Below are positions 1 through 29,653 of a stretch of 64,000 bases of DNA, piece by piece; positions within the stretch are counted from its first letter, which is position 1, and each line of letters opens with the position of its first letter. The notes beneath the pieces were generated by a model. That model made no database searches. It saw nothing but the letters and a program-made list of their open reading frames with translations, and was not told the origin of the DNA. The DNA is from Planktothricoides raciborskii GIHE-MW2 (GTDB taxonomy: Bacteria; Cyanobacteriota; Cyanobacteriia; Cyanobacteriales; Laspinemataceae): NCBI RefSeq assembly GCF_040564635.1, contig NZ_CP159837.1, forward strand, positions 419,801 to 483,800. The letters are read 5' to 3'. The translations under genes were made by a program, and so were the position numbers.

Positions 1-1236
1 ACCCCGTGGGGTTTCGTTCGCGGGGGCTTTGAATAGACCGCGTGTTTCGTCGGTGCGGCACCATACGCCCATCATGTGTCCGCAAGGAGGAACGAAAATC
101 GGGCGTCCACCGTTGCGGGGGTTGGCCACTTTAACCCAAGGATAGTAGAGTGCGCCAAACATGGAGCGCCGGTTAAACATACTTAACCAGGTGGCGACAT
201 CTTGGGGTTTTTGCTGTTCTGGGGGAATGGCTTTGTTGTCGTTTTTGCCCGGTTTGACTGGCGGTGGGTCGATGACGGCCATGCGATACGGTGGGCTGGG
301 TGCGGAGTTTTCGCACATACTGAGCATCATTTCCATGATGCCGTGGAGTTGATCTAGGTTGATTAGATTTTGTTGGTAAAGCAGCATCAGGTCGGGACAG
401 GCAATGATGGAGACATCATCAATTTCAAATATGCCTTGGACGCCTTTGCGATCGCTGCGATTTCCTTGCAGTTCTCGCGGTAGCTGATTCACGTCAGTAA
501 TATAAGCTGCCGGTGGGCTGACTTGATAGACTCCATTGGCGGGCCGCTTGGATAGGGCTGACACTGCGGGCAGTCCTGCTGCTAATTCCACATTCAGATA
601 TTGCGAATCGGCTAAAGCGGTGAGTACATAGCTGCCAACTTCAGCGGCTACTTCTTCTTTCATGGTTAGGTTGCTGAAGCTTTCCAGGGTTTCGTCGCCC
701 CGCTTCACTGTCACCTTAAAGTATTCGCCAGTGTCTAAAGGTGGTTCGCTGTCGTCTTCTGGCTGGATCGGGGTGTCGCTTTCGATCGCCACGGTCAGTT
801 GTCCGGTGACTGCGGGTAATGCGGCTTCATCTCCAGCAGCGGCTGCTCCTTTGACATTAAACAATAGAGCCGTAACGCCGGAAGATGTTAATAGTTTCGT
901 GGCGGTTTCTTGAGCCGTTGGCGCCGCCGCACCCGGTAGTCGGCTGCCAAGACTCGTGACCCAGCAACGACCGCCACCATTCAGGAACCAACCTTGAACA
1001 GCAAAGGGTAGATACGCGCCAAAGTCGGTAAACCCATCGGATCCGGGTTTGCCAAAATATTCTAAATACTGATCCCAAGTAGTGACTAACATCGGTTTGA
1101 AGGTTTCCGCGTCACCGCGTACATCTTCGGTAAAGCCGATAAAGCCAGGAACACTCAGGTTAACTCCTTCTATCGGTCGATTCCCCCGGTCTACTTCTTC
1201 GATGTAGACACCAGGGGCAAAATAATCCAAAGGCAT
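1..1236 (-). CDS. Partial CDS, N-terminal 412 aa of a contractile-injection-system / phage tail sheath-like protein. The gene continues beyond the window start.
   Basis: Translating the minus strand by hand from the ATG at 1236..1234 gives MPLDYFAPGVYIEEVDRGNRPIEGVNLSVPGFIGFTEDVRGD..., which is a classic tail-sheath N-terminus (PGVYIEE). It goes on through ...GIFEIDDVSIIACPD...YYPWVKVANP... A frame-1 scan of positions 1..1236 finds no in-frame stop (no TTA, CTA or TCA triplets on the plus strand). A GGAGGA Shine-Dalgarno sits 10 nt upstream. The ORF track omits this ORF because it runs off the window edge. Confidence 0.75.
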   Translation of the reverse strand, partial: MPLDYFAPGVYIEEVDRGNRPIEGVNLSVPGFIGFTEDVRGDAETFKPMLVTTWDQYLEYFGKPGSDGFTDFGAYLPFAVQGWFLNGGGRCWVTSLGSRLPGAAAPTAQETATKLLTSSGVTALLFNVKGAAAAGDEAALPAVTGQLTVAIESDTPIQPEDDSEPPLDTGEYFKVTVKRGDETLESFSNLTMKEEVAAEVGSYVLTALADSQYLNVELAAGLPAVSALSKRPANGVYQVSPPAAYITDVNQLPRELQGNRSDRKGVQGIFEIDDVSIIACPDLMLLYQQNLINLDQLHGIMEMMLSMCENSAPSPPYRMAVIDPPPVKPGKNDNKAIPPEQQKPQDVATWLSMFNRRSMFGALYYPWVKVANPRNGGRPIFVPPCGHMMGVWCRTDETRGLFKAPANETPRG

Positions 1237-1559
1237 AAGTGGATATCCTCCATTTGCTATTTGGCAACAGCTTGGCTTTTGGCAACAGGTCTAATCCCAA
1301 ACCGCTAATTCATCCCTTCATCCCTTGATCCCGCTAGTTCATTCCTTCATCTCTCGATCCCGTTACTTCATTCCAGTAGGTTGGCTTTGGTTTCCAGGAG
1401 GAGATGGGGAAATCTCTGGACTTAGACAGAACTTAAGCAGTAAAATGATTAATATTGGGTTTGATATTTTTCATGCGGAGGTGCGATCGCATAAAAGCAT
1501 CTCTGCATGGAAAATTTTCTTTGGTTTCTTTCTACTTCCCTAGAGCAAAGCTGAACCAG

Positions 1560-2093
1560 TTAATTGCTTGGCACGGTTGGCAGTTGCGACATTTCCACAT
1601 ACAATGGCAAGTCTGTTGCCACTGGCATAGGAATTGTCACGGTGACATATAAGGCGGGACGGAGCGGTACACCCAGAGCATTCCAGAGGGCGATGGTCTG
1701 ATTCAGATCGATGGTAGAAATATCGATGGGGACAATCGTAGAACCTCGGAGCGCGATCGGCAGAACTTCCTGGGGTAAGCAATGGTGGCTTAATAGCATC
1801 TTGAGTGCTTCTGAAAGCAGATGCTGCTCGCCGATCGCTGTGGCATCCCAGGCGGTAATCAAAAACGATAGGTCAAACCAAAGGATCGCCTCTGATTTCT
1901 GGCTGGTTTTGTCGGGTATTTGCTGATGTGACTGCCTCTGTTCATGGGGTCGAAGTTCATAACAATATAAGTTCAGCCGTGAGCCGATCCCCCGATCCAC
2001 TGTGGGGTGGTCGAAGTCAATTTGCTCCGTAGCAATTGAAGAGGCATTACCAGCCAGGATTTCTGCCAAACTCTGAGCAACCGCAGGAATCAT
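1560..2093 (-). CDS. DUF4255 (Pvc16_N / Afp16-like) protein, a putative contractile injection system cap/terminator component
   Basis: The 177-aa ORF lies immediately upstream of the sheath gene on the same strand. It has an N-terminal 'MIP...L..IL' segment and an 'LNLYCYELRP' motif that resembles the L.LYLY...N signature of the DUF4255 family. This is a pattern-based call that was not confirmed with an HMM. Confidence 0.5.
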   Translation of the reverse strand: MIPAVAQSLAEILAGNASSIATEQIDFDHPTVDRGIGSRLNLYCYELRPHEQRQSHQQIPDKTSQKSEAILWFDLSFLITAWDATAIGEQHLLSEALKMLLSHHCLPQEVLPIALRGSTIVPIDISTIDLNQTIALWNALGVPLRPALYVTVTIPMPVATDLPLYVEMSQLPTVPSN

Positions 2094-2237
2094 AAGTGGG
2101 TGATTAGGCCGTACAAGTTATAGATTAGTCACGGGACTGGCATCTGGTTATTAGACTTTGGTCGAAACTTTAAAAATTGTTGTGTTTTCTAGTCGTTTGC
2201 CCACATCTATGGTTAAGGTAGATGTGCTACCGATCCC

Positions 2238-3575
2238 ATGCCGATAAATAAGGGGATCCCCGCTTTAAAACTAGAAGGTGACTCTATGCAAAAGTTGAGT
2301 TTAGATCGGCACTTATCTTCAGGGATGGTGGGGAGTCAAGCACTCCCGCGATCGCCCTCGGCATCGCCCAATGCATCTCCTAAGCTATCTGGCAATTTGG
2401 TCAAGGTTTGTCAGCGACAATTAGCACAGTTAGTCGAACAACTACCCCTGCTGGGTGCTTGGTTGGTTTTTCGCGATCGCCCCTCTCCCTTGGGGAATAG
2501 GCATCGAATGGCTGTTGTCCGCGAAGAACGTCCGGGGTTCGATCGCCAAATCTTGTCTGAGATCGAGTCGGAACTGTGGCTACATTATGTAGATAGCGAT
2601 CGGCAAAATGTTCCTCCGGATCTCTATTTTTATCCTTTAGTTGCTACCGATGCCACGGACAAATCCGATATAGAAAATTCTGGCGAACTTTTGGCCTATT
2701 CTCCCGAAACTAATTCCGCTAATTTCGCCGCGATCGCTCCTCAGAAAGCCCTCTCTTTAAATGGCGATCGCTTCTGGATTTCTGACGATCCATCTGTAGA
2801 TGAGTATTTACTCTTGTGGGCGCATCAACCGCTTTCGGCGGCGGAACAACAAGCCACAGCGCAACGAGTTGAATTGCTCAGTGATTATTTAGTTATGGGT
2901 CGAGATCACGAGCGTCAACAAGAGGAAATTCAGTTACTAGAAATTGCGATCGGACGCAGCGAACATCAACTCAGAAATTACCTGGGAATGATTGGGCTTT
3001 ATGCTCAAAATTTGAATTGGGGTCTGTCAGATCCCATTTTTAAGGAACAGGCTATGATTATTGGTGATACGGTTCGGAATATGAGCCAAAATTTAACTCA
3101 ACTATTAAACTACACTAAACCGAAAAAAAACCATATTAAAGTGCAAAATTTTCAGCAAATAATCGAAAAAATATATCGGTTATTTGAGAATAAATTGGCT
3201 GAAAAAAAAGTCAGCTTTTTTTGGGAAAAGTCGCCTTTGGAATTTGAATTTGAACCTTGGCAAATTGAACAAGTTTTTGAGAATTTGTTGAGCAATGCTA
3301 TTGAATTTAGTCCCGTGGGCGGGGTAGTCAATTGTCATTGGCGGCTATTTAGGAATGAAGTGATGATTAAAATGAGCGATCGCGGGCCGGGATTTGCTCC
3401 CGAATACCTGAAAAATGCCTTTACTCCTTACTATTCTAAGCGTCCCGGAGGTACAGGTTTAGGATTGGCGATCGCTAAAAAAATTATCCTCGATCATCAA
3501 GGGTCGATTTGGTTAGAAAATCTTCCCGAAGGTGGGGGGCAAGTTTCCGTTGTTTTGCCCCGGTATGCTCGCTGA
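2238..3575 (+). CDS. Sensor histidine kinase (HisKA + HATPase_c)
   Basis: H-box 'RSEHQLRNYLGMIGLYAQNL', N-box 'LLSNAIEFS', G-boxes 'DRGPGF' and 'GGTGLGLAIAKKII'. No obvious TM segments. It is transcribed divergently from the CIS operon. Confidence 0.85.
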   Translation: MPINKGIPALKLEGDSMQKLSLDRHLSSGMVGSQALPRSPSASPNASPKLSGNLVKVCQRQLAQLVEQLPLLGAWLVFRDRPSPLGNRHRMAVVREERPGFDRQILSEIESELWLHYVDSDRQNVPPDLYFYPLVATDATDKSDIENSGELLAYSPETNSANFAAIAPQKALSLNGDRFWISDDPSVDEYLLLWAHQPLSAAEQQATAQRVELLSDYLVMGRDHERQQEEIQLLEIAIGRSEHQLRNYLGMIGLYAQNLNWGLSDPIFKEQAMIIGDTVRNMSQNLTQLLNYTKPKKNHIKVQNFQQIIEKIYRLFENKLAEKKVSFFWEKSPLEFEFEPWQIEQVFENLLSNAIEFSPVGGVVNCHWRLFRNEVMIKMSDRGPGFAPEYLKNAFTPYYSKRPGGTGLGLAIAKKIILDHQGSIWLENLPEGGGQVSVVLPRYAR

Positions 3576-3763
3576 TATAGGATTAATTAGGATTAATTAA
3601 AAAGTCAATCAGGTAATTTTACTAAATAACGTCCATTTATGGCAACACATCGATTCATTTCATGGAGTTGCTTTTTTCAAACCAGAATAACCAAAGATAT
3701 TTTTGCAATGATTGTTTGCTATTGATCTGGCATTGATATCGCTCTACAAAATAGGAAGAAGTA

Positions 3764-4456
3764 ATGCTAAATTATGAAATAAAATTACCACAAATCATTT
3801 CCATTTTATTAGTGGATGACGAACCAATGTTTCGCAAAGGATTAAAAACTTTGCTGGCATTTTATAGTGCCAATGGTGGTTTAACATTTAATGTAGTGGG
3901 GGAAGCCGCTTCCGTCGCCCAAGGGGTGAAACTGGCAGCGGAACAACATCCGATGATTATATTATTGGATATGGAATTACCCAAACAAGATGGGATTGAT
4001 GCTTTGGATCAGTTTAGAGAGTTAAAGTATAAAGGAAAAGCGATCGTTTTATCGGCGCATCGCGAGGATGAATTAATCTTTAAAGCGATGGAATCGGGGG
4101 CATGGGGTTATGTGTTTAAAGATTGTGTTGCCCAGCAATTATATGATGCGATCGCCACCGTGATTAAAGATGAAATTTATCTAGCCCCGGAAGTGATAAC
4201 GCGGTTTTTTCGGATGTTTCACTTTTATGGGGGACATTCTCTGACCGGCAATAAAACCGTTTATTTAACCGAACGAGAACAAGAAGTTTTACAGTGGTTA
4301 GTTCAAGGGGCTTCTAATGAAGAAATCGCTGAAAATCTTTGTGTCACTACCGCCACTGTTAAAGCTCATTTAACCTCGATATTTGAAAAATTTCAAGTCA
4401 AAAATCGCAGTCAAGCTATTGTTAAAGCCCTAAAACTGGGGTTAGTTTCGGCTTGA
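3764..4456 (+). CDS. NarL/FixJ-family response regulator (REC + LuxR-type HTH)
   Basis: Receiver motif 'ILLVDDEPMFRKGL' and LuxR HTH 'LTEREQEVLQWLVQGASNEEIAENLCVTTATVKAHLTSIFEKFQV'. Confidence 0.9.
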   Translation: MLNYEIKLPQIISILLVDDEPMFRKGLKTLLAFYSANGGLTFNVVGEAASVAQGVKLAAEQHPMIILLDMELPKQDGIDALDQFRELKYKGKAIVLSAHREDELIFKAMESGAWGYVFKDCVAQQLYDAIATVIKDEIYLAPEVITRFFRMFHFYGGHSLTGNKTVYLTEREQEVLQWLVQGASNEEIAENLCVTTATVKAHLTSIFEKFQVKNRSQAIVKALKLGLVSA

Positions 4457-4532
4457 TTCATTATTGGTTATTTGTTATTCGTGATTGTCTATGCCAGGGT
4501 AAAATAACAAATAACCAATAACCAATAACCAA
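4456..4532. terminator. Long AT-rich hairpin between convergent genes. It is built from AATAACC/AATAACA heptamer repeats and probably acts as a bidirectional terminator.
   Basis: TTCATTATTGGTTATTTGTTATTCG at 4456-4480 is the reverse complement of AATAACAAATAACCAATAA... at 4502-4530. Confidence 0.45.
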
Positions 4533-4534
4533 TA

Positions 4535-5062
4535 TTATTTGACTCGCACCTCGATCACACTGCCATTGAAGTTATACAGTAGGCCATCGAGTTCCACAGA
4601 TGTGCCAATTTTTAACTTGTTATTCCCTAAAACTGGGCCTGTCTCCGTCATGGTCGCTTTTCCCGCAATGGTTAAAATCATATTCAGGCGATAAGAATCC
4701 TCCACTCGTGGATCTGGGAGGACTTTTAGGGTGCCATCGGGTTGCGGTACGGCCAACTCATCGACGAGTCGTTTTACAGCCGTGACCTCAACTTCACCGT
4801 GAGGCTGATTGCGGATAATGATATTGGCTTTTTTGTTTTTCTCAAATTCTTTAATTAAACCATTCGGGTTACGCACACTCAGTCCCCGAACCAGCACATC
4901 CATTTCTACGGGTTTTGTGGTGACGCCAATTTGCGCGACTGACCCGGTTTTCCCCGGCAGAAAAAAGATGCCGATGACTACCAGCAAAATCACCAATCCT
5001 GCACCAATATCTAAGATGCTTAATTTACCAAATAAGCGCCCTTGCGAATCTAAAATCTTCAT
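4535..5062 (-). CDS. Conserved cyanobacterial hypothetical protein with an N-terminal TM anchor (DUF4330-like)
   Basis: 175-aa ORF. 'RLFGKLSILDIGAGLVILLVVIGIFF' forms a hydrophobic anchor. Confidence 0.55.
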   Translation of the reverse strand: MKILDSQGRLFGKLSILDIGAGLVILLVVIGIFFLPGKTGSVAQIGVTTKPVEMDVLVRGLSVRNPNGLIKEFEKNKKANIIIRNQPHGEVEVTAVKRLVDELAVPQPDGTLKVLPDPRVEDSYRLNMILTIAGKATMTETGPVLGNNKLKIGTSVELDGLLYNFNGSVIEVRVK

Positions 5063-6095: not shown

Positions 6096-6160
6096 TAATC
6101 TGACACCGATGAATCAGACACCGATGAATCAGACACCGATGAATCAGACACCGAGAGATG
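6096..6160. repeat. 15-bp tandem repeat (GACACCGATGAATCA) x ~4
   Basis: Directly visible in the sequence at 6096-6160. Confidence 0.85.
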
Positions 6161-6287: not shown

Positions 6288-8306
6288 TCAGGTATCAGCA
6301 GAGTCTTCCGGCAATTCACTGATTAACCCTAAATCTAACGGGGCTAAGTCGAAGTCTGAGTAGGAATATTCGGCGGTAAACAGGTCTGGAAGTGGCTTTT
6401 CTTCCAGAGAGTCGGGGGCGATCGCTGGGGTGGAATTGGTGAAAATTGCCCATAGTAGGGGATTTTTGGCGATAATTTGGTGCGATCGGGCAAACTGATA
6501 AACTTGTTCGGCGGTTAATCCATAATCAGACCTTTGTTGATAAACCTGCCATAAGGCTAATAAGGGTTTCAAATCTGCCCGTTGTAATTTGACCCATTTT
6601 CCCCCCATTTGAGAACATAATTTCGTTAGATAACCGTAGGCTTGCCAATGGGTCGGAATTGCTGGATTTTCAGAACTCAATATACAACCTTTGGTTAAGT
6701 CAAATTTTTCATATTCCACAAGGCGTTTTAAGGTGGCACAAAGGCTTTGGGGATGGTTTTGTGGGGCGATCGCGATGCCAATTTTCACGATTTGGCCATT
6801 TTCTTTGGCGATCGCTTGTAATTGGATATATTTCCGTTGTTTTTCACTCGGCAAACGGTCAACCCCTTCCAGGGTTACACTCCCAATGGTTTGTCCGATC
6901 GCCAACTCTAGGGAAAATTCCAGAATATCCGTTAATAAAAAGCGATCGGTCAAAGCGCGATCGACTTCTGCCTCGCTTAACCCTTCATGGTCTAAACTAT
7001 TAGCCCGGGCAAATAGCCGTTCGATCTGTTCGGCTGGGGAAACTTCCACGGACTGCACATTATCCGCACACCAGGTTAAAATTTGCCGAACGGTAAGCTG
7101 TTCCCGACCTAATGCTTTTAGCTGATCTGCATCAAAAGGATAGACCGGAGTTGGTGGGGTTAATTGGTAGGTTTGATAAAAATTTTGCAGCCAAAGGGCA
7201 ATTAACTGGACAATTTCCTCATCCACCATTTGTCGTAACCGAATTTGCTCGCCCATATCTGATAAATAAGAGGGAATTCCTTGGGGCAAATTTAGCACTT
7301 TATTATGCCAATTTTCCGGAGTCATTACTGTTAACAAAATTAGGGGATGATTGAGTTGCGATCGGGGAATCGTATCAAACAATCTTTTCACCAAACTGGC
7401 CACAATTCTTTCTCGTTTTAACCCAGTCTCTCCTTTATCCCTGGACTCCACCTCATCAAAACAAATAATCACTCCGAAATAATCACTAATTAAAGTTAAA
7501 AGTTGCACCACGGTTTCCCAAGCATCCGTGTCCCGGTATTTGTCCGTGTGATTCGGCAGCCCCAATTGTTCGGCTTTTTCCGTGGTCAGAGGATGACCCG
7601 CTAACCATTTCAAAGCATAAGGAGTTTGGGCATTACAGAGAGTCCAGATAATCCCGCGAAGTATATCCGGTTCGCCAATATTCGGTTTAATTCTGAAAAA
7701 GGCTTCGGTCAGTTGATTAATCCAAGTTTGGTTTTTCGCCAAGTTATTCCCTTGGAGATTTTTTACCAACTCTAAAGGATGAAAAACTCTGGCCTCTGGG
7801 TTCACCACTTTTAAGGTTTGGTTGGCAATTTCCGCTGCTAATTGCCACCATTGCATCACCCCTTGACTGCCTTTTTGCCGCAACCCATTGACGATGGTTT
7901 GTTGGAATTGGTAACGCAACAAGTTGGCATCGGTATATTGGCCTAAAGAGACGTAGATAAATAAGTTGCCTGGATGAGTTTTCAGGTGATGGCGAATGCG
8001 TCCAATTATATGACTTTTGCCCGTCCCGGTGGAACCTGTAATCGCGATCGAGGTCAGTTTGGGGTAACAAGAATTTGCCGTCAGCAGTTTTAAGACCGCA
8101 TCACTCGCATGACGGTTCAGGGTGGTGAGATCCGGGAAGGGTTCGCCCCAGATGTCTTGGTCAGTGACTACCGGGGGTCGGGCAAAGGGGTTATCTGCGG
8201 CGATCGCCTCATGGATCTCTTGCAATAATGAAATCGAACATTCGGCCATTTGGGGTTGGGTTATCTGTTTGGATCTAATAGTAATTCTTCTTCTAGTTTG
8301 CCTCAA
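6288..8306 (-). CDS. P-loop NTPase of unknown function (AAA/STAND-like, Walker A + Walker B)
   Basis: Walker A 'ITGSTGTGKSHIIGR', Walker B 'VIICFDEVES' and an N-terminal 'DNPFARPPVV...DIWGEPFPDL' segment typical of AAA_16/ATPase_2-like proteins. A more likely start is MAECS at about 8249. Confidence 0.7.
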   Translation of the reverse strand: MRQTRRRITIRSKQITQPQMAECSISLLQEIHEAIAADNPFARPPVVTDQDIWGEPFPDLTTLNRHASDAVLKLLTANSCYPKLTSIAITGSTGTGKSHIIGRIRHHLKTHPGNLFIYVSLGQYTDANLLRYQFQQTIVNGLRQKGSQGVMQWWQLAAEIANQTLKVVNPEARVFHPLELVKNLQGNNLAKNQTWINQLTEAFFRIKPNIGEPDILRGIIWTLCNAQTPYALKWLAGHPLTTEKAEQLGLPNHTDKYRDTDAWETVVQLLTLISDYFGVIICFDEVESRDKGETGLKRERIVASLVKRLFDTIPRSQLNHPLILLTVMTPENWHNKVLNLPQGIPSYLSDMGEQIRLRQMVDEEIVQLIALWLQNFYQTYQLTPPTPVYPFDADQLKALGREQLTVRQILTWCADNVQSVEVSPAEQIERLFARANSLDHEGLSEAEVDRALTDRFLLTDILEFSLELAIGQTIGSVTLEGVDRLPSEKQRKYIQLQAIAKENGQIVKIGIAIAPQNHPQSLCATLKRLVEYEKFDLTKGCILSSENPAIPTHWQAYGYLTKLCSQMGGKWVKLQRADLKPLLALWQVYQQRSDYGLTAEQVYQFARSHQIIAKNPLLWAIFTNSTPAIAPDSLEEKPLPDLFTAEYSYSDFDLAPLDLGLISELPEDSADT

Positions 8307-8449: not shown

Positions 8450-9274
8450 TTAAGAATTATTTGACTTATTTGTTTCTGTGGCCACTTGCTGAACCACCGC
8501 CAAAGGTAAATCTAAGGCGCGGGCTATTTGTTCAACAGTCAAACCCTCCTTAAGCAAAGCAGGAATCGCTTTTAATTTGGTTTTTTCCTCACCTTTTTGT
8601 TCCCCTTTTTCCTCACCTTCTAAATAAGCTTCCTGATATACCTTGGTTTGTTTCAACTCACTTAAGCCAAACATTGCTTCAATCTCCTCTCTACTTTTTT
8701 TAGGTAATTTATAGACAATGATCGTTTCGATTAAATCCACCAAGTTTCGCTGAATTTGTTCATTAGTTAACTCTTGCTTTGCTTGTTGGATTAAACCTTT
8801 AGCCCGATCGACCGCTTGATCTGGTTCTTCTACAACTAGCTTAACAAGTCCAACTCCCAAAGAGCGATCGCCTATCTCCCCTAACTCATCTAAATAGACT
8901 CGTTTTACCCGGTTTAGATTGAGTAAATCGCCAAATTGAACAGCCACTTCTCTTTCTATACTACGAGTAGGATAAATTACCACCACATTCCAAGGGAATG
9001 GCGTTTGGTATTGCTTTAAATAGAGAAACAGTTCACTAAATAGACGATAGTATAATGTATCGTCCGGTTGAAACTGCACTTCAACCAGATAAAAAGGGCG
9101 ATATTCCTCGTTAGTGGTGGGTAAAAATAACCCATCTAATCGAAAAGCCAGTTGTTTGACTTCCCTCGATGTAAATTCATACCGAGTCGCCTCTGATGAC
9201 TCATTCCCGATTAATTCAAAAAAGCTTTGAGGGAATTCCAAAAATAGGCGGTAAAAAATACTGTCAGTTTTCAT
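8450..9274 (-). CDS. Rpn-family recombination-promoting nuclease / putative transposase (PD-(D/E)XK nuclease + C-terminal DUF4351)
   Basis: N-terminal 'FYRLFLEFPQSFFEL...TSREVKQLAFRLDGLFLP...YLVEVQFQPDDTLYYRLF' and C-terminal 'KGEQKGEEKTKLKAIPALLKEGLTVEQIARALDLPLAVVQQV', a family that is abundant in cyanobacteria. Confidence 0.8.
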   Translation of the reverse strand: MKTDSIFYRLFLEFPQSFFELIGNESSEATRYEFTSREVKQLAFRLDGLFLPTTNEEYRPFYLVEVQFQPDDTLYYRLFSELFLYLKQYQTPFPWNVVVIYPTRSIEREVAVQFGDLLNLNRVKRVYLDELGEIGDRSLGVGLVKLVVEEPDQAVDRAKGLIQQAKQELTNEQIQRNLVDLIETIIVYKLPKKSREEIEAMFGLSELKQTKVYQEAYLEGEEKGEQKGEEKTKLKAIPALLKEGLTVEQIARALDLPLAVVQQVATETNKSNNS

Positions 9275-25103: not shown

Positions 25104-26495
25104 ATGAATCTTAAAGAAATGTTAAAAATTGCTGATGAAATAGTCTTCAAGAAAACCGGCGAACACCTCAACGACTTACAGGAAGGGGTACTGCGAGGAA
25201 CTCTACAGCGGGAGACATATAAGGAAATCGCTCAAAATTTTTACTGTTCGGAAAGTAATGTGAGAAAAGTGGCCATGGAATTATGGGAAATACTTTCAGC
25301 AGAGTTGAGTGAAAAAGTCAGTAAATCTAATTTACGCTCAGCAATGGAGAGGTGGCAAGTCTCGCTCGTTTCACACTATGCACAAGACTCTGTACGAAAC
25401 TGTGTGCAAATAAGTTGTGTTAATGTTTGTGGAGAAAGTAGACAGCCACCAGATATTCCAAATTCAAATCCACCGAATCAAGAAACAACTAACTCAAAAG
25501 AAAATAAAATATCCCATCAATATTTAAGTGAAATGCCGGATTTTGGTGCTTTTTACAGTCGAGATACCGAACTGGAAAACCTCAAAACCTGGATTTTACA
25601 ACAACGCTGTCGCCTCATCGCAGTCACCGGCATGAGTGGCATTGGCAAAACTGCATTAGCAGCGCAACTTGTACAACAAATTAAAGATGAATTTGAGTAT
25701 GTAATTTGGTGCAGTCTAGACGAATATTACACTCTAGATGCCTTTGAATATAAACTAATTCAGTTTTTCTCCCAGTCAGAAAAACTTGATGCACAGCCAA
25801 GTCAAACGAAGCCCTTAATTAAATATCTACAAAAGCATCGCTGCTTAGTGATATTAGATGACATTCAAAACCTTTTCATTAGAGGTGAATTGGCAGGAAA
25901 GTATAAACCAGGATACGAAGAATATCGGGGATTTTTCAAACAAATCGAAACATTTTCCCATCAAAGCTGCTTTTTGTTAATCGGTTGGGAACAACCGAGA
26001 GAATTGACTCAGGTTAAGCCCCAAAATAATCTGATTAACAGTTTACAACTGACGGGTTTAGATATCGAAGTTGGACGAGAAATCCTGAGAGAGTACGGGT
26101 TAGCTGAAGTTGAACAAGCCTCAGCACTGATGCAACGCTACGAAAGGAATCCATTATGGGTAAAAACTGTAGCGATTTTCATTCAAGATTTGGGAGTATT
26201 CGTCACTGATTTGTTAGTAAATGAGCCGCTGTTATTGCCGGAAGATTTGAAAGATATTTTAGGGCAGATTTATGATCGCTTATCCAACATCGAAAAACAA
26301 ATTCTTTCTTTATTGACGAAAGAAAACGAACCTGTTTCTTTAGCCAAATTACTAGAAAATAACATAATCGCCTCGGCAGATTTGCTAAATGGACTGCAAT
26401 CTTTATCACGACGCTGCTTGTTAGAACAACAGGATAATTGTTACTCCCTAACGTCTGTATTGAAACAGTATATCAAAGGTTTATCACTAACATAG
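25104..26495 (+). CDS. NB-ARC/STAND-family P-loop NTPase with a cyanobacterial N-terminal HTH-like domain and no C-terminal repeat (sensor) domain
   Basis: N-terminal 'LNDLQEGVLRGTLQRETYKEIAQNFYCSESNVRKVAMELWEILS' is the N-domain typical of cyanobacterial NB-ARC/WD40 proteins. Walker A 'VTGMSGIGKTALA', Walker B 'CLVILDDIQN'. At 463 aa it is much shorter than full-length family members. Confidence 0.7.
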   Translation: MNLKEMLKIADEIVFKKTGEHLNDLQEGVLRGTLQRETYKEIAQNFYCSESNVRKVAMELWEILSAELSEKVSKSNLRSAMERWQVSLVSHYAQDSVRNCVQISCVNVCGESRQPPDIPNSNPPNQETTNSKENKISHQYLSEMPDFGAFYSRDTELENLKTWILQQRCRLIAVTGMSGIGKTALAAQLVQQIKDEFEYVIWCSLDEYYTLDAFEYKLIQFFSQSEKLDAQPSQTKPLIKYLQKHRCLVILDDIQNLFIRGELAGKYKPGYEEYRGFFKQIETFSHQSCFLLIGWEQPRELTQVKPQNNLINSLQLTGLDIEVGREILREYGLAEVEQASALMQRYERNPLWVKTVAIFIQDLGVFVTDLLVNEPLLLPEDLKDILGQIYDRLSNIEKQILSLLTKENEPVSLAKLLENNIIASADLLNGLQSLSRRCLLEQQDNCYSLTSVLKQYIKGLSLT

Positions 26496-26601
26496 CGACT
26501 CCTTTTCAACTCATACGAACTATATCAATTGATGTCAATATCCGATTAACATTACCTTGTGAGTCCGAAACGGAAGAATAAAGTCAAGCCTAAAGTTATC
26601 A

Positions 26602-27027
26602 CTACGAACCTAGGTCAAAATATTGTTGAATAAAATCTTGGGCTGCCATGATTTTAATGCCCTGATATTCTGCTAAAACGCGTAAATCCATATCGCCTGT
26701 AATAATCGCATCCGCTTGAGAGGCGATCGCAGTTGCCAAGACCATAGTATCATCTGGATCTCTGAGTTCAGGCACATTTAATTCATCAATTGGATATAAA
26801 ATAACAGATGAGCGAATCAGAGCAATTACAGTAGATCCCGTTAAACCTAAAGCTTTTAGCTTGGGTTGCAGTTTGGTTTTATTGAATGTGCCTTCTAATT
26901 CATCCAATAATTCTTGAGACATGGCAATTGTGATTCTTCCTTGTTCTGCCAATTGGACAATTTCATCAGGAACTCCGCCCCAAATCACCGCAGATACCCA
27001 AATATTTGTATCTAAAACTACTTTCAT
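26602..27027 (-). CDS. PIN-domain toxin (VapC-like)
   Basis: 'MKVVLDTNIWVSAV' carries the PIN acidic residues and '...ITGDMDL'. The start overlaps the upstream antitoxin gene by 4 bp. Confidence 0.75.
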   Translation of the reverse strand: MKVVLDTNIWVSAVIWGGVPDEIVQLAEQGRITIAMSQELLDELEGTFNKTKLQPKLKALGLTGSTVIALIRSSVILYPIDELNVPELRDPDDTMVLATAIASQADAIITGDMDLRVLAEYQGIKIMAAQDFIQQYFDLGS

Positions 27028-27284
27028 TTCTTTGCTCTTTCGTGACGAACTTCCTTGACGATCGCACAAATTTCTTCAGTAGTAAGCTGATCCGGATCGT
27101 CTCCTAACTGCTCTCGGCGTTTTCTTAAGTCATCCCAATCAAATGTGGGGACTTTTGTAAAAACAATAGTGTCTCCATTGGTAATCACTGAGTATTTTTC
27201 CCCCTGCGAGAATTTATCTCTAATTTCCGGTGGGAGTTCTAAATTTCCTTCTGGGGTTAAAGCGATCGTAATTGTGGCTTCCAT
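27024..27284 (-). CDS. AbrB/MazE-type (SpoVT/AbrB fold) antitoxin
   Basis: 'MEATITIALTPEGNLELPPEIRDKF...' is the typical looped-hinge-helix antitoxin N-terminus. The ORF-track start further upstream is unlikely. Confidence 0.65.
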   Translation of the reverse strand: MEATITIALTPEGNLELPPEIRDKFSQGEKYSVITNGDTIVFTKVPTFDWDDLRKRREQLGDDPDQLTTEEICAIVKEVRHERAKK

Positions 27285-27562
27285 ATTTGTTTCATTATTC
27301 CTGACGATGATGATTATACCACAATTATACCACAAAATTTTTCTATTTCAGTTTCATCATGGCTGCATCATGGCTGCATCATGGCTGTAGGGGCGAAGCA
27401 TTTCGGCAGAAAATCCCCGCTTACCACCCATAACTTACCTGCCGAAATGCTTCGCCATGACGATATTTTTGGTAAACAAAATCGCCAATTTCATTCCAAC
27501 GGCCCGCGCATTGTGCTATTATAATTATTATCAAAATTATCCAACTAATTCAGTGAATTTAT

Positions 27563-28039
27563 ATGACCACGATCGCCCCCGTAACCACCGCAGCCAAACT
27601 CGCTGATTACTTCATCTGGTTTGCCAATGATGTAGGTTCTTACCTCAGCAATCAAAAACTGCAAAAACTCTTATACTATGCCCAAGCCTGGTATTTAGCC
27701 TTTGAAGATACACCTCTATTTGAGGAAGACTTTGAAGCCTGGATGCATGGGCCGACTATCCCCGCTTTATTTTATGAATACAAAGAACAATTCGGGTTTA
27801 AACCCATTCTGAAAGAAGTCGAAAAACCCGAATTCTCAGAAGATGTCCAAAAGTTTTTAGACGAGTTAGCTGACGATTATTTTTTTCTGGACGCTTATGA
27901 GTTAGAGTTGATGGTGCGCCGCGAAGACCCTTGGATTAATGCCAGAGGTGACTTGCCAAAAGATGAACCTTCTCATGCTATTATTACTAAGGAGTTAATG
28001 AGAAACTTTTACAAAACCCGTGTCATCGAAGAAGAATAA
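27563..28039 (+). CDS. Panacea-domain (DUF4065 / SocA-like) protein, a putative PanA antitoxin
   Basis: 'QKLQKLLYYAQAWYLAFEDTPLFEEDFEAWMHGPTIPALFYEY' matches the DUF4065 consensus. Confidence 0.75.
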   Translation: MTTIAPVTTAAKLADYFIWFANDVGSYLSNQKLQKLLYYAQAWYLAFEDTPLFEEDFEAWMHGPTIPALFYEYKEQFGFKPILKEVEKPEFSEDVQKFLDELADDYFFLDAYELELMVRREDPWINARGDLPKDEPSHAIITKELMRNFYKTRVIEEE

Positions 28040-28463
28040 AAAAAGACAAGACACTGATATCCGCATTCAGCCATCTTCAGCCGGAAGAAATGTAGGGGAG
28101 ATAAAAATACCGGAAGGAATTAGTTTTTCTTTCCGGTATTATCAGGATGATAAAGAAAAATTTTCCATAGGTAAGAGGGACGCCAGATATCTAGCTTCTC
28201 TCTTGCGGAGACTGCGCGATTTATCTCAATTAAATGCGAAAGAACTGATTAACAATCAGAGTAAAAGTCTCCGCTGTCATAAAATAGACTGGCAAGATAC
28301 AACTGAACCCAATGGTTTTGGGATTGCTAATGAAGAGCAGCTAGTCAATACCCCCTACCAGTTTCAAATCTCTGCCAATGAATATGGCAGAGTGCATGGA
28401 TTTTTTAGTGAAAATGTTTTTTACGCTATCTGGTTAGACCCAGACCATCATCTTTATCAGTAA
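28020..28463 (+). CDS. Hypothetical protein that overlaps the 3' end of the Panacea gene by 20 bp. Candidate cognate toxin.
   Basis: 147-aa ORF. No family recognised. Its last about 57 codons are duplicated at 29038-29212. Confidence 0.4.
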   Translation: MSSKKNKKRQDTDIRIQPSSAGRNVGEIKIPEGISFSFRYYQDDKEKFSIGKRDARYLASLLRRLRDLSQLNAKELINNQSKSLRCHKIDWQDTTEPNGFGIANEEQLVNTPYQFQISANEYGRVHGFFSENVFYAIWLDPDHHLYQ

Positions 28464-28500
28464 ACATGAGAAAGCGATCGCCTTATTTATCGCTACGATT
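28290..28500. repeat. Copy 1 of a roughly 200-bp direct repeat. Copy 2 is at 29030-29240. The repeat includes the 3' end of gene 28020..28463.
   Basis: 'ctggcaagatacaactgaacccaatggttttgggattgctaatgaagagcagctagtcaataccccctaccagtttcaaatctctgccaatgaatatggcagagtgcatggattttttag[t/c]gaaaatgttttttacgctatctggttagacccagaccat...' appears at both locations. Confidence 0.85.
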
Positions 28501-28609
28501 GATTAATTGTGTTAAAAATTAGTTAATTTTTTCCCTAGGAATATCCGGGTAACGAGGGAAAAATGGAGACATTTGTGGCCGGAAAACGTTGATAGGGAGG
28601 TTAAGTAAT

Positions 28610-28918
28610 ATGGATTTGAAACCGATAAAAACTGAGGCAGATTATCGTCAAGCGTTGGCGGAAATTGAACGGCTTTTTGAGGCAGAATTGAATACCCCAG
28701 AGGGCAATCGCTTGGAAATTCTCGTCACCTTGGTTGAAGCTTACGAAAAAAAGCATCATCCAATTGAATCACCTTTACCTGATGAGGCAATTCTCTACCA
28801 CTTAGAAAGCCGTCATCCTTCTTTAACGGTCTCTAATTTTATTCAAGGATTGAAGCGTCGGGGAGTCAGCGATCGCGTGATTCAAGAGGCTTTGAATGAG
28901 GTGGGTATGGCAGGGTAG
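28610..28918 (+). CDS. HigA-family antitoxin-like protein (N-terminal domain clear, C-terminal HTH atypical)
   Basis: 'MDLKPIKTEADYRQALAEIERLFEAELNTPEGNRLEILVTLVEAYEKKHHPI' is the characteristic HigA/XRE antitoxin N-terminus. GGGAGG lies 9 nt upstream of this ATG. Confidence 0.5.
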   Translation: MDLKPIKTEADYRQALAEIERLFEAELNTPEGNRLEILVTLVEAYEKKHHPIESPLPDEAILYHLESRHPSLTVSNFIQGLKRRGVSDRVIQEALNEVGMAG

Positions 28919-28919
28919 C

Positions 28920-29035
28920 ACGGGAGTACGGGAGCACGGGAGTAGGGGAGCCGCCAATCGAGCCGCCAATCGAGCAGAGGAACCCCACACCCTACACCGA
29001 TGGCGGCCCTACCCCCTACACCCTACACCCTACAC
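28920..29035. repeat. STRR-like heptamer repeats plus a roughly 90-bp segment that is repeated at 30185-30285
   Basis: 'gagccgccaatcgagccgccaatcgagcagaggaaccccacaccctacaccgatggcggccctac' is present at both sites. Together they flank xisH/xisI. Confidence 0.8.
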
Positions 29036-29281
29036 TACTGGCAAGATACAACTGAACCCAATGGTTTTGGGATTGCTAATGAAGAGCAGCTAGTCAATAC
29101 CCCCTACCAGTTTCAAATCTCTGCCAATGAATATGGCAGAGTGCATGGATTTTTTAGCGAAAATGTTTTTTACGCTATCTGGTTAGACCCAGACCATAAT
29201 CTTTATCGGTAAACATGAGAAAGCGATCGCGTTATTTAAGGCTACTACTCACAACACCGGACAGAACAAAACAAAACAAAA

Positions 29282-29653
29282 TTAAACAACTGAATATTCC
29301 GTATATTGCCGGATTTCAGGAGGTTGAAACCCCAGGACAATATCTTGCTTAGGAACCCCTAGATCCACCAGTTTTTGGGCGATTCTCATTTCGGTCATAT
29401 TTTGCTGAACCCAAATTTTCCCCCCTTGAATATCCAAATGTAACACGCAACCATAAACTCTTCGATACCCATCCCAGCCCACATTCATTACCTGATAGTG
29501 GTCTTGTTTCGTGTCAAAAACCGTGTAGCAATCTATCGAGCCATTCGCGATCGGGATAGACGCATAATCCGCTAACACAGACTGAATAATCAGGCGATAA
29601 TATTCTATTTTATCCCCGATTTTATCTCCGATTTTATCCACTATTTTATCCAT
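29282..29653 (-). CDS. xisI: XisI (fdxN element excision controlling factor XisI family)
   Basis: 'YTVFDTKQDHYQVMNVGWDGYRRVYGCVLHLDIQGGKIWVQQNMTE..IAQKLVDLGVPKQDIVLGF'. The N-terminal 'DKIGDKIGDKI' comes from a 12-bp tandem repeat. Confidence 0.9.
   Translation of the reverse strand: MDKIVDKIGDKIGDKIEYYRLIIQSVLADYASIPIANGSIDCYTVFDTKQDHYQVMNVGWDGYRRVYGCVLHLDIQGGKIWVQQNMTEMRIAQKLVDLGVPKQDIVLGFQPPEIRQYTEYSVV

What the first reader, a model, noticed from the sequence alone, without database searches (positions are those of the whole stretch)
1..2240. 5' end of a contractile injection system (eCIS/tCIS-like) operon: DUF4255-like gene then tail sheath, running off the window
The minus-strand gene at 1..1236 translates to a textbook sheath N-terminus (MPLDYFAPGVYIEEV...). 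It is preceded by a DUF4255/Pvc16_N-like ORF. This arrangement is typical of phage-tail-like injection-system loci, which in cyanobacteria include thylakoid-anchored tCIS. The ORF track missed the sheath gene because it is edge-truncated. Any tube, baseplate, spike, AAA+ ATPase and effector genes would lie just left of the window.
Basis: partly seen in the sequence, partly recalled or inferred. Interest (0 to 1): 0.55.

Follow-up and report, generated by a model that had tools for sequence, protein, structure and literature searches.

The report
Start of a contractile-injection-system operon
The left edge of the window holds the first two genes, the promoter and the likely two-component regulator of a phage-tail-like injection machine in the cyanobacterium Planktothricoides raciborskii; this is a known kind of system, but the genes for its baseplate and spike do not lie next to it.

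Summary
The minus-strand frame 1..1236 is open to the window edge. It equals the first 412 of 572 residues of a Planktothricoides raciborskii tail-sheath protein. ORF 1560..2093 is a Pvc16_N/DUF4255 protein (E 8.6e-26).

Contigs of the same species, 99.5-99.9% identical over the 12 kb compared, show what lies left of the window. The operon continues with three gp19 tube paralogues, two related small proteins, a 446-aa DUF4255 protein, a 72-aa protein and a WHD-AAA+ ATPase. It then stops at the housekeeping genes ResB and CcdA.

The sheath aligns full-length with the cytoplasmic Streptomyces CIS sheath (E 7e-108). Only its C-terminal third aligns with the Anabaena thylakoid-anchored CIS sheath.

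All ten genes are under purifying selection (dN/dS 0.06-0.33).

The divergent histidine kinase and NarL/GerE response regulator (2238..4456) accompany the small DUF4255 gene in every related locus that has that gene. A palindromic box, TCGACCAAAGTCTA (2152..2165), sits at the same place in all of them and also recurs upstream of baseplate-arm genes elsewhere. It is probably the regulator's operator.

This is an ordinary system with a split architecture.

The parts
1..1236 (-). 5' 72% (412 of 572 codons) of the CIS sheath gene (Cis2/Afp2-like); the remaining 160 codons lie off the left edge.
   Evidence: The frame is open to the window edge. It is 100% identical to WP_054465100 residues 1-412. 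It hits PHROG 23 at 4.6e-21 and 8BKY at 3.3e-47; the full protein hits 8BKY at 7.1e-108. The full protein carries Phage_sheath_1 and Phage_sheath_1C. dN/dS is 0.07-0.08.
1237..1290 (-). Conserved leader just upstream of the sheath ATG, with a GGAGGA ribosome-binding site and two CTGTTGCCAAA direct repeats 18 nt apart.
   Evidence: The direct repeats were found. The last ~37 nt before the ATG are almost identical (one substitution) in P. raciborskii and its 91%- and 75%-identity relatives, while the rest of the spacer diverges. The function is inferred.
1302..1374 (.). 29-nt tandem repeat (2.5 copies) inside the DUF4255-sheath spacer; a species-specific insertion, probably not functional for the CIS.
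   Evidence: Detected by tandem-repeat and repeat searches. It is absent from both relatives in the alignment.
1560..2093 (-). First gene of the operon: a small (177 aa) DUF4255/Pvc16_N protein, a Cis16-like tail-terminator (cap) homologue.
   Evidence: It matches PF14065 at 8.6e-26 and S. coelicolor Cis16 (9GTS) at 3.2e-15. It is the fastest-evolving gene of the set (dN/dS 0.33). It is a pseudogene in the 75%-identity relative L013.
2111..2127 (-). Second conserved promoter block, TAATCTATAACTTGTAC, containing a -10-like TAATCT (TAnnnT) hexamer.
   Evidence: It is conserved at a fixed distance from the box in 9 lineages, while the flanks are not conserved. The assignment as a -10 element is inferred.
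2152..2165 (-). Palindromic 'CIS box' TCGACCAAAGTCTA (T[AC]GAC-N4-GTCTA), a candidate operator in the divergent kinase/DUF4255 promoter region. Its centre is 66 nt upstream of the DUF4255 ATG, about -43 relative to the putative -10.
   Evidence: This is the only match in the 64-kb window (expected 0.08). The same box sits at the same place in all 8 independent loci with a small DUF4255 gene, and in L013. In the related loci there are 31 sites in 2.05 Mb against about 6 expected, and 28 of them lie 40-400 nt upstream of CIS genes. The box is 22-fold enriched upstream of Cis5-like genes. This intergenic region is 96% identical to the 91%-identity relative.
2238..3575 (+). Soluble sensor histidine kinase, divergent from the CIS operon. 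The probable true start is Met17 at 2286. The N-terminal ~200 aa are an unassigned sensor region.
   Evidence: It matches HATPase_c at 3.3e-21, and residues ~206-443 match the kinase core of many kinase models. It has no hydrophobic segment typical of a membrane span, and it has an H-box SEHQLRNYL. Full-length orthologues (36-39% identity) lie next to CIS genes in Ancylothrix, Crinalium and Coleofasciculus.
3764..4456 (+). NarL/LuxR(GerE)-type response regulator, the probable transcription regulator of the CIS genes.
   Evidence: It matches Response_reg at 8.8e-23 and GerE at 2.1e-20, and its best NCBIfam match is NarL. Orthologues at 58-65% identity are adjacent to CIS genes in nine loci from other lineages, several of them different named genera. 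Geller et al. 2021 (PMC8213781) report GerE regulators next to 25.8% of eCIS loci.

Best explanation
Window 1..4456 holds the control end of a chromosomal, phage-tail-derived contractile injection system (CIS) of Planktothricoides raciborskii.

Shown. The minus-strand operon starts at about 2093 with a small DUF4255 (Cis16-like cap) gene and continues with the sheath gene, which runs off the window. In same-species contigs that are 99.5-99.9% identical over the 12 kb compared, the operon continues with: three gp19-family tube paralogues (the third resembles canonical inner-tube proteins), two paralogous small proteins of 124 and 151 aa (the longer has a DUF6760 tail with a faint P2 GpE-like match), a 446-aa DUF4255 protein, a 72-aa protein and a WHD-AAA+ ATPase. 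It ends at ResB. Every gene is under purifying selection. No baseplate or spike gene is adjacent.

Inferred mechanism. The sheath polymerises around the tube on a baseplate that must be encoded elsewhere in the 7.2-Mb genome. The assembly is capped by the DUF4255 protein(s) and contracts to expel the tube. The AAA+ ATPase acts in assembly or cargo loading, as reported for Afp15/Pvc15 (my own knowledge, not checked here).

Inferred regulation. Expression is controlled by the divergently encoded soluble histidine kinase and NarL/GerE response regulator. The regulator most likely binds as a dimer to the palindromic box TCGACCAAAGTCTA, centred near -43 of a promoter that has no -35 element. The same box precedes baseplate-arm genes in related genomes, so it would coordinate physically separated CIS operons.

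Mode of action. By sheath and cap similarity the system belongs with the clade-II CISs (cytoplasmic Streptomyces CIS, membrane-bound haloarchaeal CIS), not with the Anabaena thylakoid-anchored CIS. Its mode of action cannot be read from sequence.
For: Gene identity:
- Sheath and DUF4255 identity rest.
- The organism and the flank come from exact or near-exact matches to P. raciborskii contigs.
- The gene order downstream of the sheath, ending at ResB/CcdA/Uma2/aldehyde dehydrogenase, is seen.
- Direct Pfam hits for the tubes (2e-9 to 7e-28), the 446-aa Pvc16_N protein (2.9e-42) and WHD+AAA are. The third tube gene matches the Cis1/Pvc1/Afp1 inner-tube chains of solved CISs.
- The two small proteins are 53% identical over 91 aa.

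Functional state: dN/dS is 0.06-0.33 for all ten genes against two relatives.

Not a phage: no phage in 50,697 records covers more than 68% of the sheath, and the strongest matches reach about 36% identity over the C-terminal half.

Clade affinity: 8BKY scores 365 bits over the full length and 9EZM scores 277 bits, whereas Anabaena All3325 scores 171 bits over the C-terminal part only. The identities of these entries come from PMC10066040, PMC12237407 and PMC11566945.

Regulator linkage:
- The response regulator (58-65% identity) and the kinase lie next to the small DUF4255 gene in 7 of 7 other loci that have that gene. They are absent from the 35 or so loci of the other architecture that show the region upstream of the sheath gene.
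- GerE regulators with an upstream kinase are a known eCIS association (PMC8213781).

Box. The kinase/DUF4255 intergenic region is 96% identical to a relative whose DUF4255 protein is only 80% identical.
Against: - The baseplate and spike genes of P. raciborskii were not found. They are absent from 7.4 kb beyond the ATPase and from the other 62 kb of the window. Scans with a Cis5-like profile returned no Planktothricoides locus, but each scan showed only the best 80 of 459 and of 227 relatives, so the result is uninformative rather than negative.
- Binding of this response regulator to the box is not shown; another factor could use it. About three quarters of Cis5-upstream regions lack a box at one mismatch or fewer.
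- Clade placement rests on pairwise scores, not on a tree.
- The small DUF4255 gene has decayed in one relative, so its role as an essential cap is doubtful.
- The left flank is read from other strains, not from the window's own genome.
Confidence: 0.85

Rival explanations
1. It is a thylakoid-anchored CIS (tCIS) of the Anabaena PCC 7120 type. It would be assembled in the cytoplasm and anchored in thylakoid stacks through baseplate and fibre extensions.
For: The host is a filamentous cyanobacterium. Like the Anabaena tCIS, which has a two-protein cap (Cis16A and Cis16B; PMC8894136), this operon encodes two DUF4255 proteins. All3325 is a significant sheath match (4.3e-49).
Against: The sheath aligns with All3325 only over residues 378-563. 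It aligns full-length, with twice the score, to Streptomyces Cis2, and the small cap protein matches Streptomyces Cis16. The anchoring features (Cis13 transmembrane domain, Cis12 extension, Cis19 crown) could not be tested because no baseplate genes were located. No protein of the half-cluster has a clear hydrophobic segment of the kind that spans a membrane. Mode of action is not predictable from phylogeny alone (PMC12998442).
Confidence: 0.08
2. It is an orphaned half of a CIS cluster. The sheath, tube, cap and ATPase genes would survive without any baseplate in the genome. They would then be either on their way to decay or recruited for a use that does not need a baseplate.
For: No baseplate gene is adjacent, and none was retrieved for this species. 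The same half-cluster, also followed by unrelated genes, occurs in the 75%- and 91%-identity relatives. The small DUF4255 gene has decayed in one relative.
Against: All ten genes show dN/dS of 0.06-0.33 at dS up to about 1.1, which does not fit decay. Other cyanobacteria also keep CIS genes in separate loci: in a Coleofasciculus genome the ATPase and eCIS_core genes stand alone, and in Laspinema and related genomes the baseplate arm has no sheath gene within the 10 kb upstream. The promoter box is conserved. In every characterised CIS, sheath assembly needs a baseplate (established knowledge of the family).
Confidence: 0.08
3. It is the tail module of a prophage or an R-type tailocin rather than a dedicated injection system.
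For: The sheath and tube families are shared with myovirus tails (PHROG 23), and 917 phage records give weak sheath matches.
Against: Two DUF4255 genes and a WHD-AAA+ ATPase are CIS-type rather than phage components; DUF4255 and AAA are listed among the eCIS core domains in PMC8213781. No capsid, terminase, portal, integrase or lysis gene occurs in the 17 kb read to the left or the 62 kb to the right. The locus sits in the same chromosomal context, between the kinase/regulator pair and ResB, in all strains and in the 91%-identity relative. The strongest phage sheath matches reach about 36% identity over half the protein.
Confidence: 0.02
4. The conserved box and second block upstream of the DUF4255 gene are not an operator of the neighbouring response regulator. 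They would instead be the promoter of an alternative sigma factor, or the site of an unlinked regulator.
For: Two blocks at a fixed spacing of about 25 nt can also describe a -35/-10 pair of an alternative sigma factor. Many loci carry the box upstream of Cis5-like genes with no kinase or regulator within 10 kb.
Against: The box is a 5+5 palindrome, which suits a dimeric helix-turn-helix protein rather than a sigma factor, and it occurs in both orientations relative to the downstream gene. It co-occurs with the regulator at every small-DUF4255 promoter seen.
Confidence: 0.25

Closest known systems
Streptomyces coelicolor cytoplasmic CIS (CIS-Sc; dbeCIS subtype IId; PDB 8BKY, 8BL4, 9GTP, 9GTS; PMC10066040, PMC12237407)
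   Same: The sheath aligns full-length (residues 4-568 to 3-528, E 7e-108). The small DUF4255 protein matches the Cis16 cap (3e-15). Several tube paralogues and a Cis15-type ATPase are present. No tape-measure gene is visible in the cluster.
   Different: The host phylum differs. The cluster here is not contiguous with the baseplate genes. It has an extra 446-aa DUF4255 protein and a dedicated kinase/regulator pair. Membership of subtype IId was not tested with a tree. The cell-death function of CIS-Sc cannot be transferred to this system.
Haloarchaeal T6SS-like CIS of Halogeometricum borinquense (clade IIa; PDB 9EZM; PMC11566945)
   Same: It is the second-best solved sheath relative (2.3e-81). 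Its structural genes are also organised in two sub-clusters.
   Different: The alignment is in two stretches. The two archaeal sub-clusters are only 8.7 kb apart on a plasmid, and anchoring there depends on a six-helix membrane protein that has no counterpart in the half-cluster here.
Anabaena sp. PCC 7120 thylakoid-anchored CIS (clade Ib; PDB 7B5H; PMC8894136)
   Same: The host is also a filamentous cyanobacterium. Two DUF4255-family proteins are encoded, which may parallel the Cis16A/Cis16B two-protein cap.
   Different: Only the C-terminal 186 residues of the sheath align (171 bits). The 446-aa DUF4255 protein has no sequence match to any solved chain. The Anabaena cluster is contiguous (all3313-all3327). 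The anchoring features could not be tested.
AFP/PVC-type extracellular CIS and the eCIStem catalogue, including its GerE regulator with upstream kinase (PMC8213781)
   Same: The core domain set overlaps: sheath, gp19 tube, DUF4255 and AAA. A GerE-type regulator with an adjacent histidine kinase is the association reported there (GerE next to 25.8% of loci, and a kinase upstream in 9% of those).
   Different: Only 7 core genes are linked here, with no Afp8 or Afp11 homologue. The locus therefore fails that catalogue's operon definition of at least 10 core genes. No tail fibre or effector gene is seen. No operator sequence is mentioned in the passages of that paper that I read.
Complete cyanobacterial cluster of the same family in Ancylothrix sp. 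C2 (loci L012 and L017)
   Same: Orthologues are present for every gene of the half-cluster (sheath 68%, ATPase 58%, response regulator 61% identity), the box lies upstream of the small DUF4255 gene, and the kinase/regulator pair is divergent from it.
   Different: In Ancylothrix the ATPase arm continues into eCIS_core, a PBP_like_2 protein, a Cis5-like gene, CIS_tube, VgrG, PAAR, gp25, a Cis11-like gene and Tail_P2_I. In Planktothricoides that arm is missing from the locus, and the Pvc16_N, 72-aa and AAA genes have moved behind the tube genes.

Membership tests
Phage-tail-like contractile injection system (Afp/PVC/Cis-type, non-T6SS) | Contractile sheath protein with Phage_sheath_1 and Phage_sheath_1C domains | tested here: met
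   The window fragment is identical to residues 1-412 of a 572-aa protein that carries both domains. That protein matches 8BKY at 7e-108.
Phage-tail-like contractile injection system (Afp/PVC/Cis-type, non-T6SS) | Inner tube protein(s) of the gp19 family | tested here: met
   Three PF06841 genes follow the sheath in same-species contigs (2e-9, 2e-15 and 7e-28). They lie outside the window.
Phage-tail-like contractile injection system (Afp/PVC/Cis-type, non-T6SS) | DUF4255/Pvc16_N tail-terminator (cap), an eCIS-specific core gene | tested here: met
   Window ORF 1560..2093 matches PF14065 at 8.6e-26 and Cis16 (9GTS) at 3e-15. A second, 446-aa copy matches at 2.9e-42.
Phage-tail-like contractile injection system (Afp/PVC/Cis-type, non-T6SS) | Afp15/Cis15-type AAA+ ATPase | tested here: met
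   A 689-aa protein with WHD (4e-18) and AAA (2e-25) is the last gene of the operon. Its orthologues are widespread in cyanobacteria.
Phage-tail-like contractile injection system (Afp/PVC/Cis-type, non-T6SS) | Baseplate and spike genes (gp25, Baseplate_J/Cis11, Cis12, VgrG, PAAR) in the same cluster | tested here: not met
   None occurs between the ATPase and 7.4 kb beyond it, nor in window 2.2-64 kb. Whether they exist elsewhere in the genome could not be determined.
eCIStem/dbeCIS catalogued eCIS operon (Geller et al. 2021 definition) | At least 10 core genes in proximity, including Afp8 and Afp11 (which co-occur in 98.7% of loci) | tested here: not met
   There are 7 linked core genes (2 DUF4255, 1 sheath, 3 gp19, 1 AAA) and no Afp8 or Afp11 homologue. 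The definition was read.
Thylakoid-anchored CIS (Anabaena type) | Cis13 transmembrane domain, Cis12 extension and Cis19 crown | not testable with these tools
   These features lie on baseplate and fibre proteins, which were not located for this species (PMC8894136).
Thylakoid-anchored CIS (Anabaena type) | Close sequence relationship to the Anabaena sheath and cap (clade Ib) | tested here: not met
   All3325 aligns only to sheath residues 378-563 (171 bits), against 365 bits full-length for Streptomyces Cis2. The cap proteins match no Anabaena chain.
Clade II CIS (subtype IId, Streptomyces/Chloroflexota-like) | Placement in the Cis2/Cis11 phylogeny of dbeCIS/eCIStem | tested here: inconclusive
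   Only pairwise scores against solved chains are available. The two best are IId (8BKY) and IIa (9EZM). No tree was built and no Cis11 sequence is available.
Prophage or R-type tailocin tail module | Linked capsid, terminase, integrase or lysis genes, and a close phage sheath homologue | tested here: not met
   The flanks are housekeeping or regulatory genes. The strongest phage sheath matches reach about 36% identity over half the protein.
NarL/LuxR-type two-component system | Receiver domain plus GerE helix-turn-helix in the regulator; H-box and HATPase_c in the kinase | tested here: met
   The regulator matches Response_reg at 8.8e-23 and GerE at 2.1e-20, and the kinase matches HATPase_c at 3.3e-21. 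NarL is the best NCBIfam match. The H-box SEHQLRNYL is present.
eCIS-associated GerE regulator (Geller et al. 2021) | A GerE-domain regulator, sometimes with an upstream kinase, conserved next to CIS genes | tested here: met
   Orthologues at 58-65% identity are adjacent to CIS genes in Ancylothrix, Crinalium, Coleofasciculus, Phormidium and Amazonocrinis and in metagenome loci.

The most novel reading that the evidence does not exclude
In one cyanobacterial CIS family the structural genes are scattered over separate operons. These operons would be tied together by a dedicated soluble histidine kinase and NarL/GerE regulator acting at a palindromic 'CIS box' (T[AC]GAC-N4-GTCTA, centred about -43 of promoters that lack a -35 element). 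To my knowledge that would be the first defined cis-regulatory code for any extracellular-type CIS. In Planktothricoides the sheath-tube-cap-ATPase operon has become fully unlinked from its baseplate arm. If the genome turns out to have no baseplate genes at all, a sheath/tube module would be maintained by selection without one.
Probability: 0.35. Interest if true: 0.55.

Novelty: new member of a known kind. Interest (0 to 1): 0.38.

Why it matters
CIS loci are common in cyanobacteria: the Anabaena paper cites about 40% of sequenced genomes. Only one cyanobacterial system, of a different clade, has been characterised.

This locus documents a second cyanobacterial lineage whose closest solved relatives are the cytoplasmic Streptomyces CIS and the membrane-bound haloarchaeal CIS.

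It also shows that catalogue rules which demand ten linked core genes, including spike and baseplate genes, will miss split clusters like this one.

The practical gain is a testable regulatory handle: a conserved kinase/regulator pair and a 14-bp box at a fixed promoter position. The same box marks baseplate-arm operons in other genomes. It could be used to find unlinked CIS genes and to switch the system on in culture.

P. raciborskii forms blooms (my own knowledge), so a stress-inducible CIS that causes cell death or acts on other cells would be ecologically relevant. That remains speculative.

Tried and rejected
1. Pfam on the truncated sheath gave nothing. The domains lie mostly beyond the window edge, so I used the full-length orthologue instead.

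2. Hunt for the baseplate arm of P. raciborskii:
- I took a Cis5-like tube gene from the complete Ancylothrix cluster.
- I searched its family (no Planktothricoides name in the best 120) and read ten multi-member clusters (none Planktothricoides).
- I scanned GTDB genomes, viral contigs (no relative) and JGI metagenomes.
- Both large scans keep only the best 80 hits, and Planktothricoides was not among them. This is not evidence of absence.

3. The last protein search, with the kinase sensor region, found a single homologue. That left no alignment for structure prediction.

4. Single-sequence AlphaFold models of the kinase and of the small DUF4255 protein were unusable (mean pLDDT 31 and 34), so I ran no fold search.

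5. The GC bump at 1-2000 was considered as a sign of horizontal transfer. It is confined to the sheath and small DUF4255 genes (GC3 0.53-0.54, like Ffh), and the rest of the operon has genome-typical composition. I rejected it as evidence of recent transfer.

6. The consensus promoter/terminator scan of 1-4700 gave no more promoter-like sites than shuffled sequence and none at the conserved blocks, so I did not use it.

7. A blastn search for shared repeats between the window and all fetched loci found no further Planktothricoides-like locus.

8. I found no paper mentioning Planktothricoides together with a CIS and none describing a binding site for a CIS-linked GerE regulator. Planktothricoides is not in the supplementary tables held for the Anabaena paper.

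Full report
**The observation.** The minus-strand frame from 1236 to position 1 has no stop codon over 412 codons. The ORF listing omits it because ORFs that run off an end are not listed. The translation begins MPLDYFAPGVYIEEV. It is 100% identical to residues 1-412 of the 572-aa protein WP_054465100, annotated as a 'phage tail sheath family protein' of Planktothricoides.

The fragment gives no Pfam hit. The reason is that Phage_sheath_1 and Phage_sheath_1C map to residues 352-563 of the full protein. The fragment still hits PHROG 23 'tail sheath' at 4.6e-21 and the Streptomyces coelicolor CIS sheath 8BKY at 3.3e-47.

ORF 1560..2093(-), 177 aa, matches Pvc16_N (PF14065) at 8.6e-26. It also matches the S. 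coelicolor cap protein Cis16 (9GTS) at 3.2e-15.

**Organism and the missing left flank.** The exact DUF4255 protein occurs on many contigs. Several of these loci match the window at 99.5-99.9% identity over the 12 kb compared. They include two NCBI assemblies, and the sources name the proteins as Planktothricoides raciborskii. I used them as proxies for the DNA left of position 1.

Downstream of the sheath gene the contigs show, in order:
- three gp19-family genes of 157, 161 and 160 aa;
- a 124-aa protein;
- a 151-aa protein with a DUF6760 tail and a faint P2 GpE match;
- a 446-aa Pvc16_N protein;
- a 72-aa protein;
- a 689-aa WHD+AAA ATPase.

The third gp19 protein is the one that resembles solved inner-tube proteins. 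The 124-aa and 151-aa proteins are paralogues, 53% identical over 91 residues. A short protein and a longer one that share an N-terminus recall phage tail-assembly chaperone pairs; that is my inference.

After the ATPase come ResB and CcdA/DsbD on the opposite strand, then Uma2, two unknown ORFs and an aldehyde dehydrogenase. The CIS genes therefore end about 8.2 kb left of the window. No baseplate, spike, PAAR or effector gene follows. The rest of the window carries unrelated genes and none of these.

**Is the half-cluster alive?** A 91%-identity relative (L015) has the same gene order and the same ResB junction. A 75%-identity relative (L013) has the same gene order, followed by other unrelated genes. 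Nei-Gojobori dN/dS for all ten genes against these two relatives is 0.06-0.33, with dS up to about 1.1. The module is therefore under purifying selection.

The small DUF4255 gene is the least constrained (dN/dS 0.33). In L013 it is broken into three frames with stop codons.

The higher GC at 1-2000 is a property of the sheath and small DUF4255 genes only. Their GC3 of 0.53-0.54 equals that of Ffh, so it is not evidence of recent transfer.

No phage record covers more than 68% of the sheath, and the strongest matches reach about 36% identity over the C-terminal half. No phage genes flank the locus. A prophage or tailocin origin is therefore rejected.

**What a complete relative looks like.** In Ancylothrix sp. 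C2 the small DUF4255, sheath and tube arm is divergent from a second arm. That arm runs kinase, regulator, Pvc16_N, a 77-aa protein, AAA, eCIS_core and further genes, then a PBP_like_2 protein, a Cis5-like gp19, CIS_tube, VgrG, PAAR, gp25, a 725-aa Cis11-like protein and Tail_P2_I.

A tblastn table over 182 fetched loci shows two architectures. The common one has AAA and Pvc16_N divergent from the sheath gene, with no small DUF4255 gene and no regulator pair. The rarer one has the small DUF4255 gene plus the kinase and regulator.

CIS genes are often dispersed in this family. In a Coleofasciculus genome the ATPase and eCIS_core genes stand alone. In Laspinema and related genomes the baseplate arm has no sheath gene within the 10 kb upstream. 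Planktothricoides is an extreme case in which the whole baseplate arm is unlinked.

I could not find that arm. The family search, the cluster look-ups and the scans of genomes, viral contigs and metagenomes returned no Planktothricoides locus. The two large scans list only the best 80 of 459 and of 227 relatives, so this says nothing about absence.

**The neighbouring two-component system belongs to the locus.** Window 2238..3575 encodes a histidine kinase with an H-box and HATPase_c. Its N-terminal ~200 aa match no known domain, and it has no membrane-spanning segment. Window 3764..4456 encodes a NarL/GerE response regulator.

Regulator orthologues at 58-65% identity, and kinase orthologues that mostly align over the sensor region as well, lie beside the small DUF4255 gene in 7 of 7 other loci that have that gene. 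They are absent from the 35 or so loci of the other architecture that show the region upstream of the sheath gene.

This matches the published association of GerE regulators with eCIS loci. GerE regulators lie next to 25.8% of loci, and 9% of those have a kinase upstream (PMC8213781). The same paper defines an operon as at least 10 linked core genes, and it reports that Afp8 and Afp11 co-occur in 98.7% of loci. A 7-gene half-cluster such as this one would be missed.

**A conserved promoter element.** The kinase/DUF4255 intergenic region is 96% identical to that of the 91%-identity relative, although the DUF4255 proteins are only 80% identical. Across nine lineages only two blocks survive.

The first block is a palindromic box, T[AC]GAC-N4-GTCTA. 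In the window it reads TCGACCAAAGTCTA at 2152..2165. This is the only match in 64 kb, against 0.08 expected.

The second block, TAATCTATAAC..., lies about 25 nt downstream at 2111..2127 and contains a TAnnnT hexamer. If that hexamer is the -10 element, the box is centred near -43 of a promoter with no -35 element. That is the usual geometry of an activator-dependent promoter; this step is inference.

The box centre lies 44-84 nt, mostly 66 nt, upstream of the small DUF4255 start codon in all 8 independent loci, and the box is also present in L013.

In 2.05 Mb of related loci there are 31 boxes against about 6 expected. Of these, 28 lie 40-400 nt upstream of a CIS gene: 8 upstream of the small DUF4255 gene, 15 upstream of Cis5-like genes, and the rest upstream of eCIS_core, PBP_like_2, gp25 or the kinase.

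Allowing one mismatch, 24 of 102 dereplicated regions upstream of Cis5-like genes carry a box, against 27 of 2527 control windows.

I infer that the box is the operator of the linked regulator and that it couples separated CIS operons. Binding has not been shown, and an unlinked factor remains possible.

A further short leader before the sheath ATG (1237..1290, with two CTGTTGCCAAA repeats) is conserved in three lineages. The 29-nt tandem repeat at 1302..1374 is a species-specific insertion.

**Comparison with known systems.** The full sheath aligns end-to-end with S. coelicolor Cis2 (7.1e-108). The next best is the haloarchaeal Cis2, 9EZM (2.3e-81). The Anabaena tCIS sheath All3325, Pvc2, Afp2 and the AlgoCIS sheath match only the C-terminal 180-210 residues, with E-values from 4e-49 to 3e-42.

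These entries are, respectively, a cytoplasmic CIS of subtype IId that mediates cell death, a membrane-bound T6SS-like CIS of clade IIa, and clade-I systems. The affinity is therefore with clade II, not with the thylakoid-anchored system. I did not build a tree, so the subtype is open.

Mode of action cannot be inferred from phylogeny; PMC12998442 makes this point explicitly. The features that define tCIS lie on baseplate proteins that I could not examine.

**Verdict.** The finding is real and is a CIS operon start.

It is a new member of a known kind. Two modestly interesting twists are an unlinked half-cluster under selection, and a conserved kinase/regulator pair with a palindromic promoter box that also marks baseplate-arm operons elsewhere.

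Noticed in passing
window 47987-64000 (+): One very large CRISPR array. It gives 216 gathering-level hits to Rfam CRISPR-DR5, with the 37-nt repeat GTTGCAACTATATTGAATCCCTATTAGGGATTGAAAC at a period of about 72-75 nt. It runs off the right end of the window and explains why no ORF of 120 aa or more exists after 47627. No cas gene lies between the Dus gene (46593-47627) and the array.
   Followed up: partly
L013:1250-1990 (75%-identity relative, ENA contig k141_7810287): The orthologue of the small DUF4255 gene is a pseudogene: fragments in three frames with internal stop codons. The promoter box and all other CIS genes are intact and under purifying selection. This suggests that the small cap-like protein is dispensable.
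   Followed up: yes
L001:14599-15498 (left of the window): Two adjacent paralogous small proteins of 124 and 151 aa share a 91-residue N-terminal region (53% identity). The 124-aa protein is among the most conserved proteins of the whole family (about 70-96% identity across the related loci). The pair resembles phage tail-assembly chaperone pairs, yet no tape-measure gene is seen.
   Followed up: partly
window 6288-8306 (-) and 6097-6154: A 672-aa P-loop NTPase has weak KAP, AAA_22, YobI and BrxC/D-like matches. Immediately downstream of its stop codon lies a 15-nt tandem repeat (AATCAGACACCGATG, 3.9 copies). The gene sits next to a DUF2887 gene (8450-9274) and may be a defence-type NTPase.
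   Followed up: no
window 25104-30057: A small islet of defence- or toxin-antitoxin-type genes: an NB-ARC/STAND NTPase (25104-26495), a PIN-domain protein (26602-27069), a SocA/Panacea antitoxin-like protein (27563-28039) and XisH (29641-30057) with an adjacent 123-aa ORF.
   Followed up: no
window 34575-38279 (-): A 1234-aa protein with an N-terminal TPS secretion domain (8.7e-56). It is a two-partner-secretion exoprotein, that is, another secreted large protein near the CIS locus.
   Followed up: no
window 34425-34474 and 46445-46503: A palindromic element, TACGGGCGAATGGCCATTCGCCC, is duplicated in tandem at two intergenic sites 12 kb apart. It looks like a species-specific REP-like repeat. 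GAGCCGCCAATC repeats occur at 28948 and 30197.
   Followed up: no
L012:1-388 (Ancylothrix sp. C2): The complete relative carries a second, shorter sheath gene (359 aa) at the end of its tube arm. The Planktothricoides operon has none.
   Followed up: no
L018:13938-14898 (unnamed 7.25-Mb cyanobacterial contig): In this relative the baseplate arm is cut directly after VgrG by an IS element (HTH_23 plus DDE_3) and is followed by housekeeping genes. This is a second independent example of CIS cluster fragmentation.
   Followed up: no
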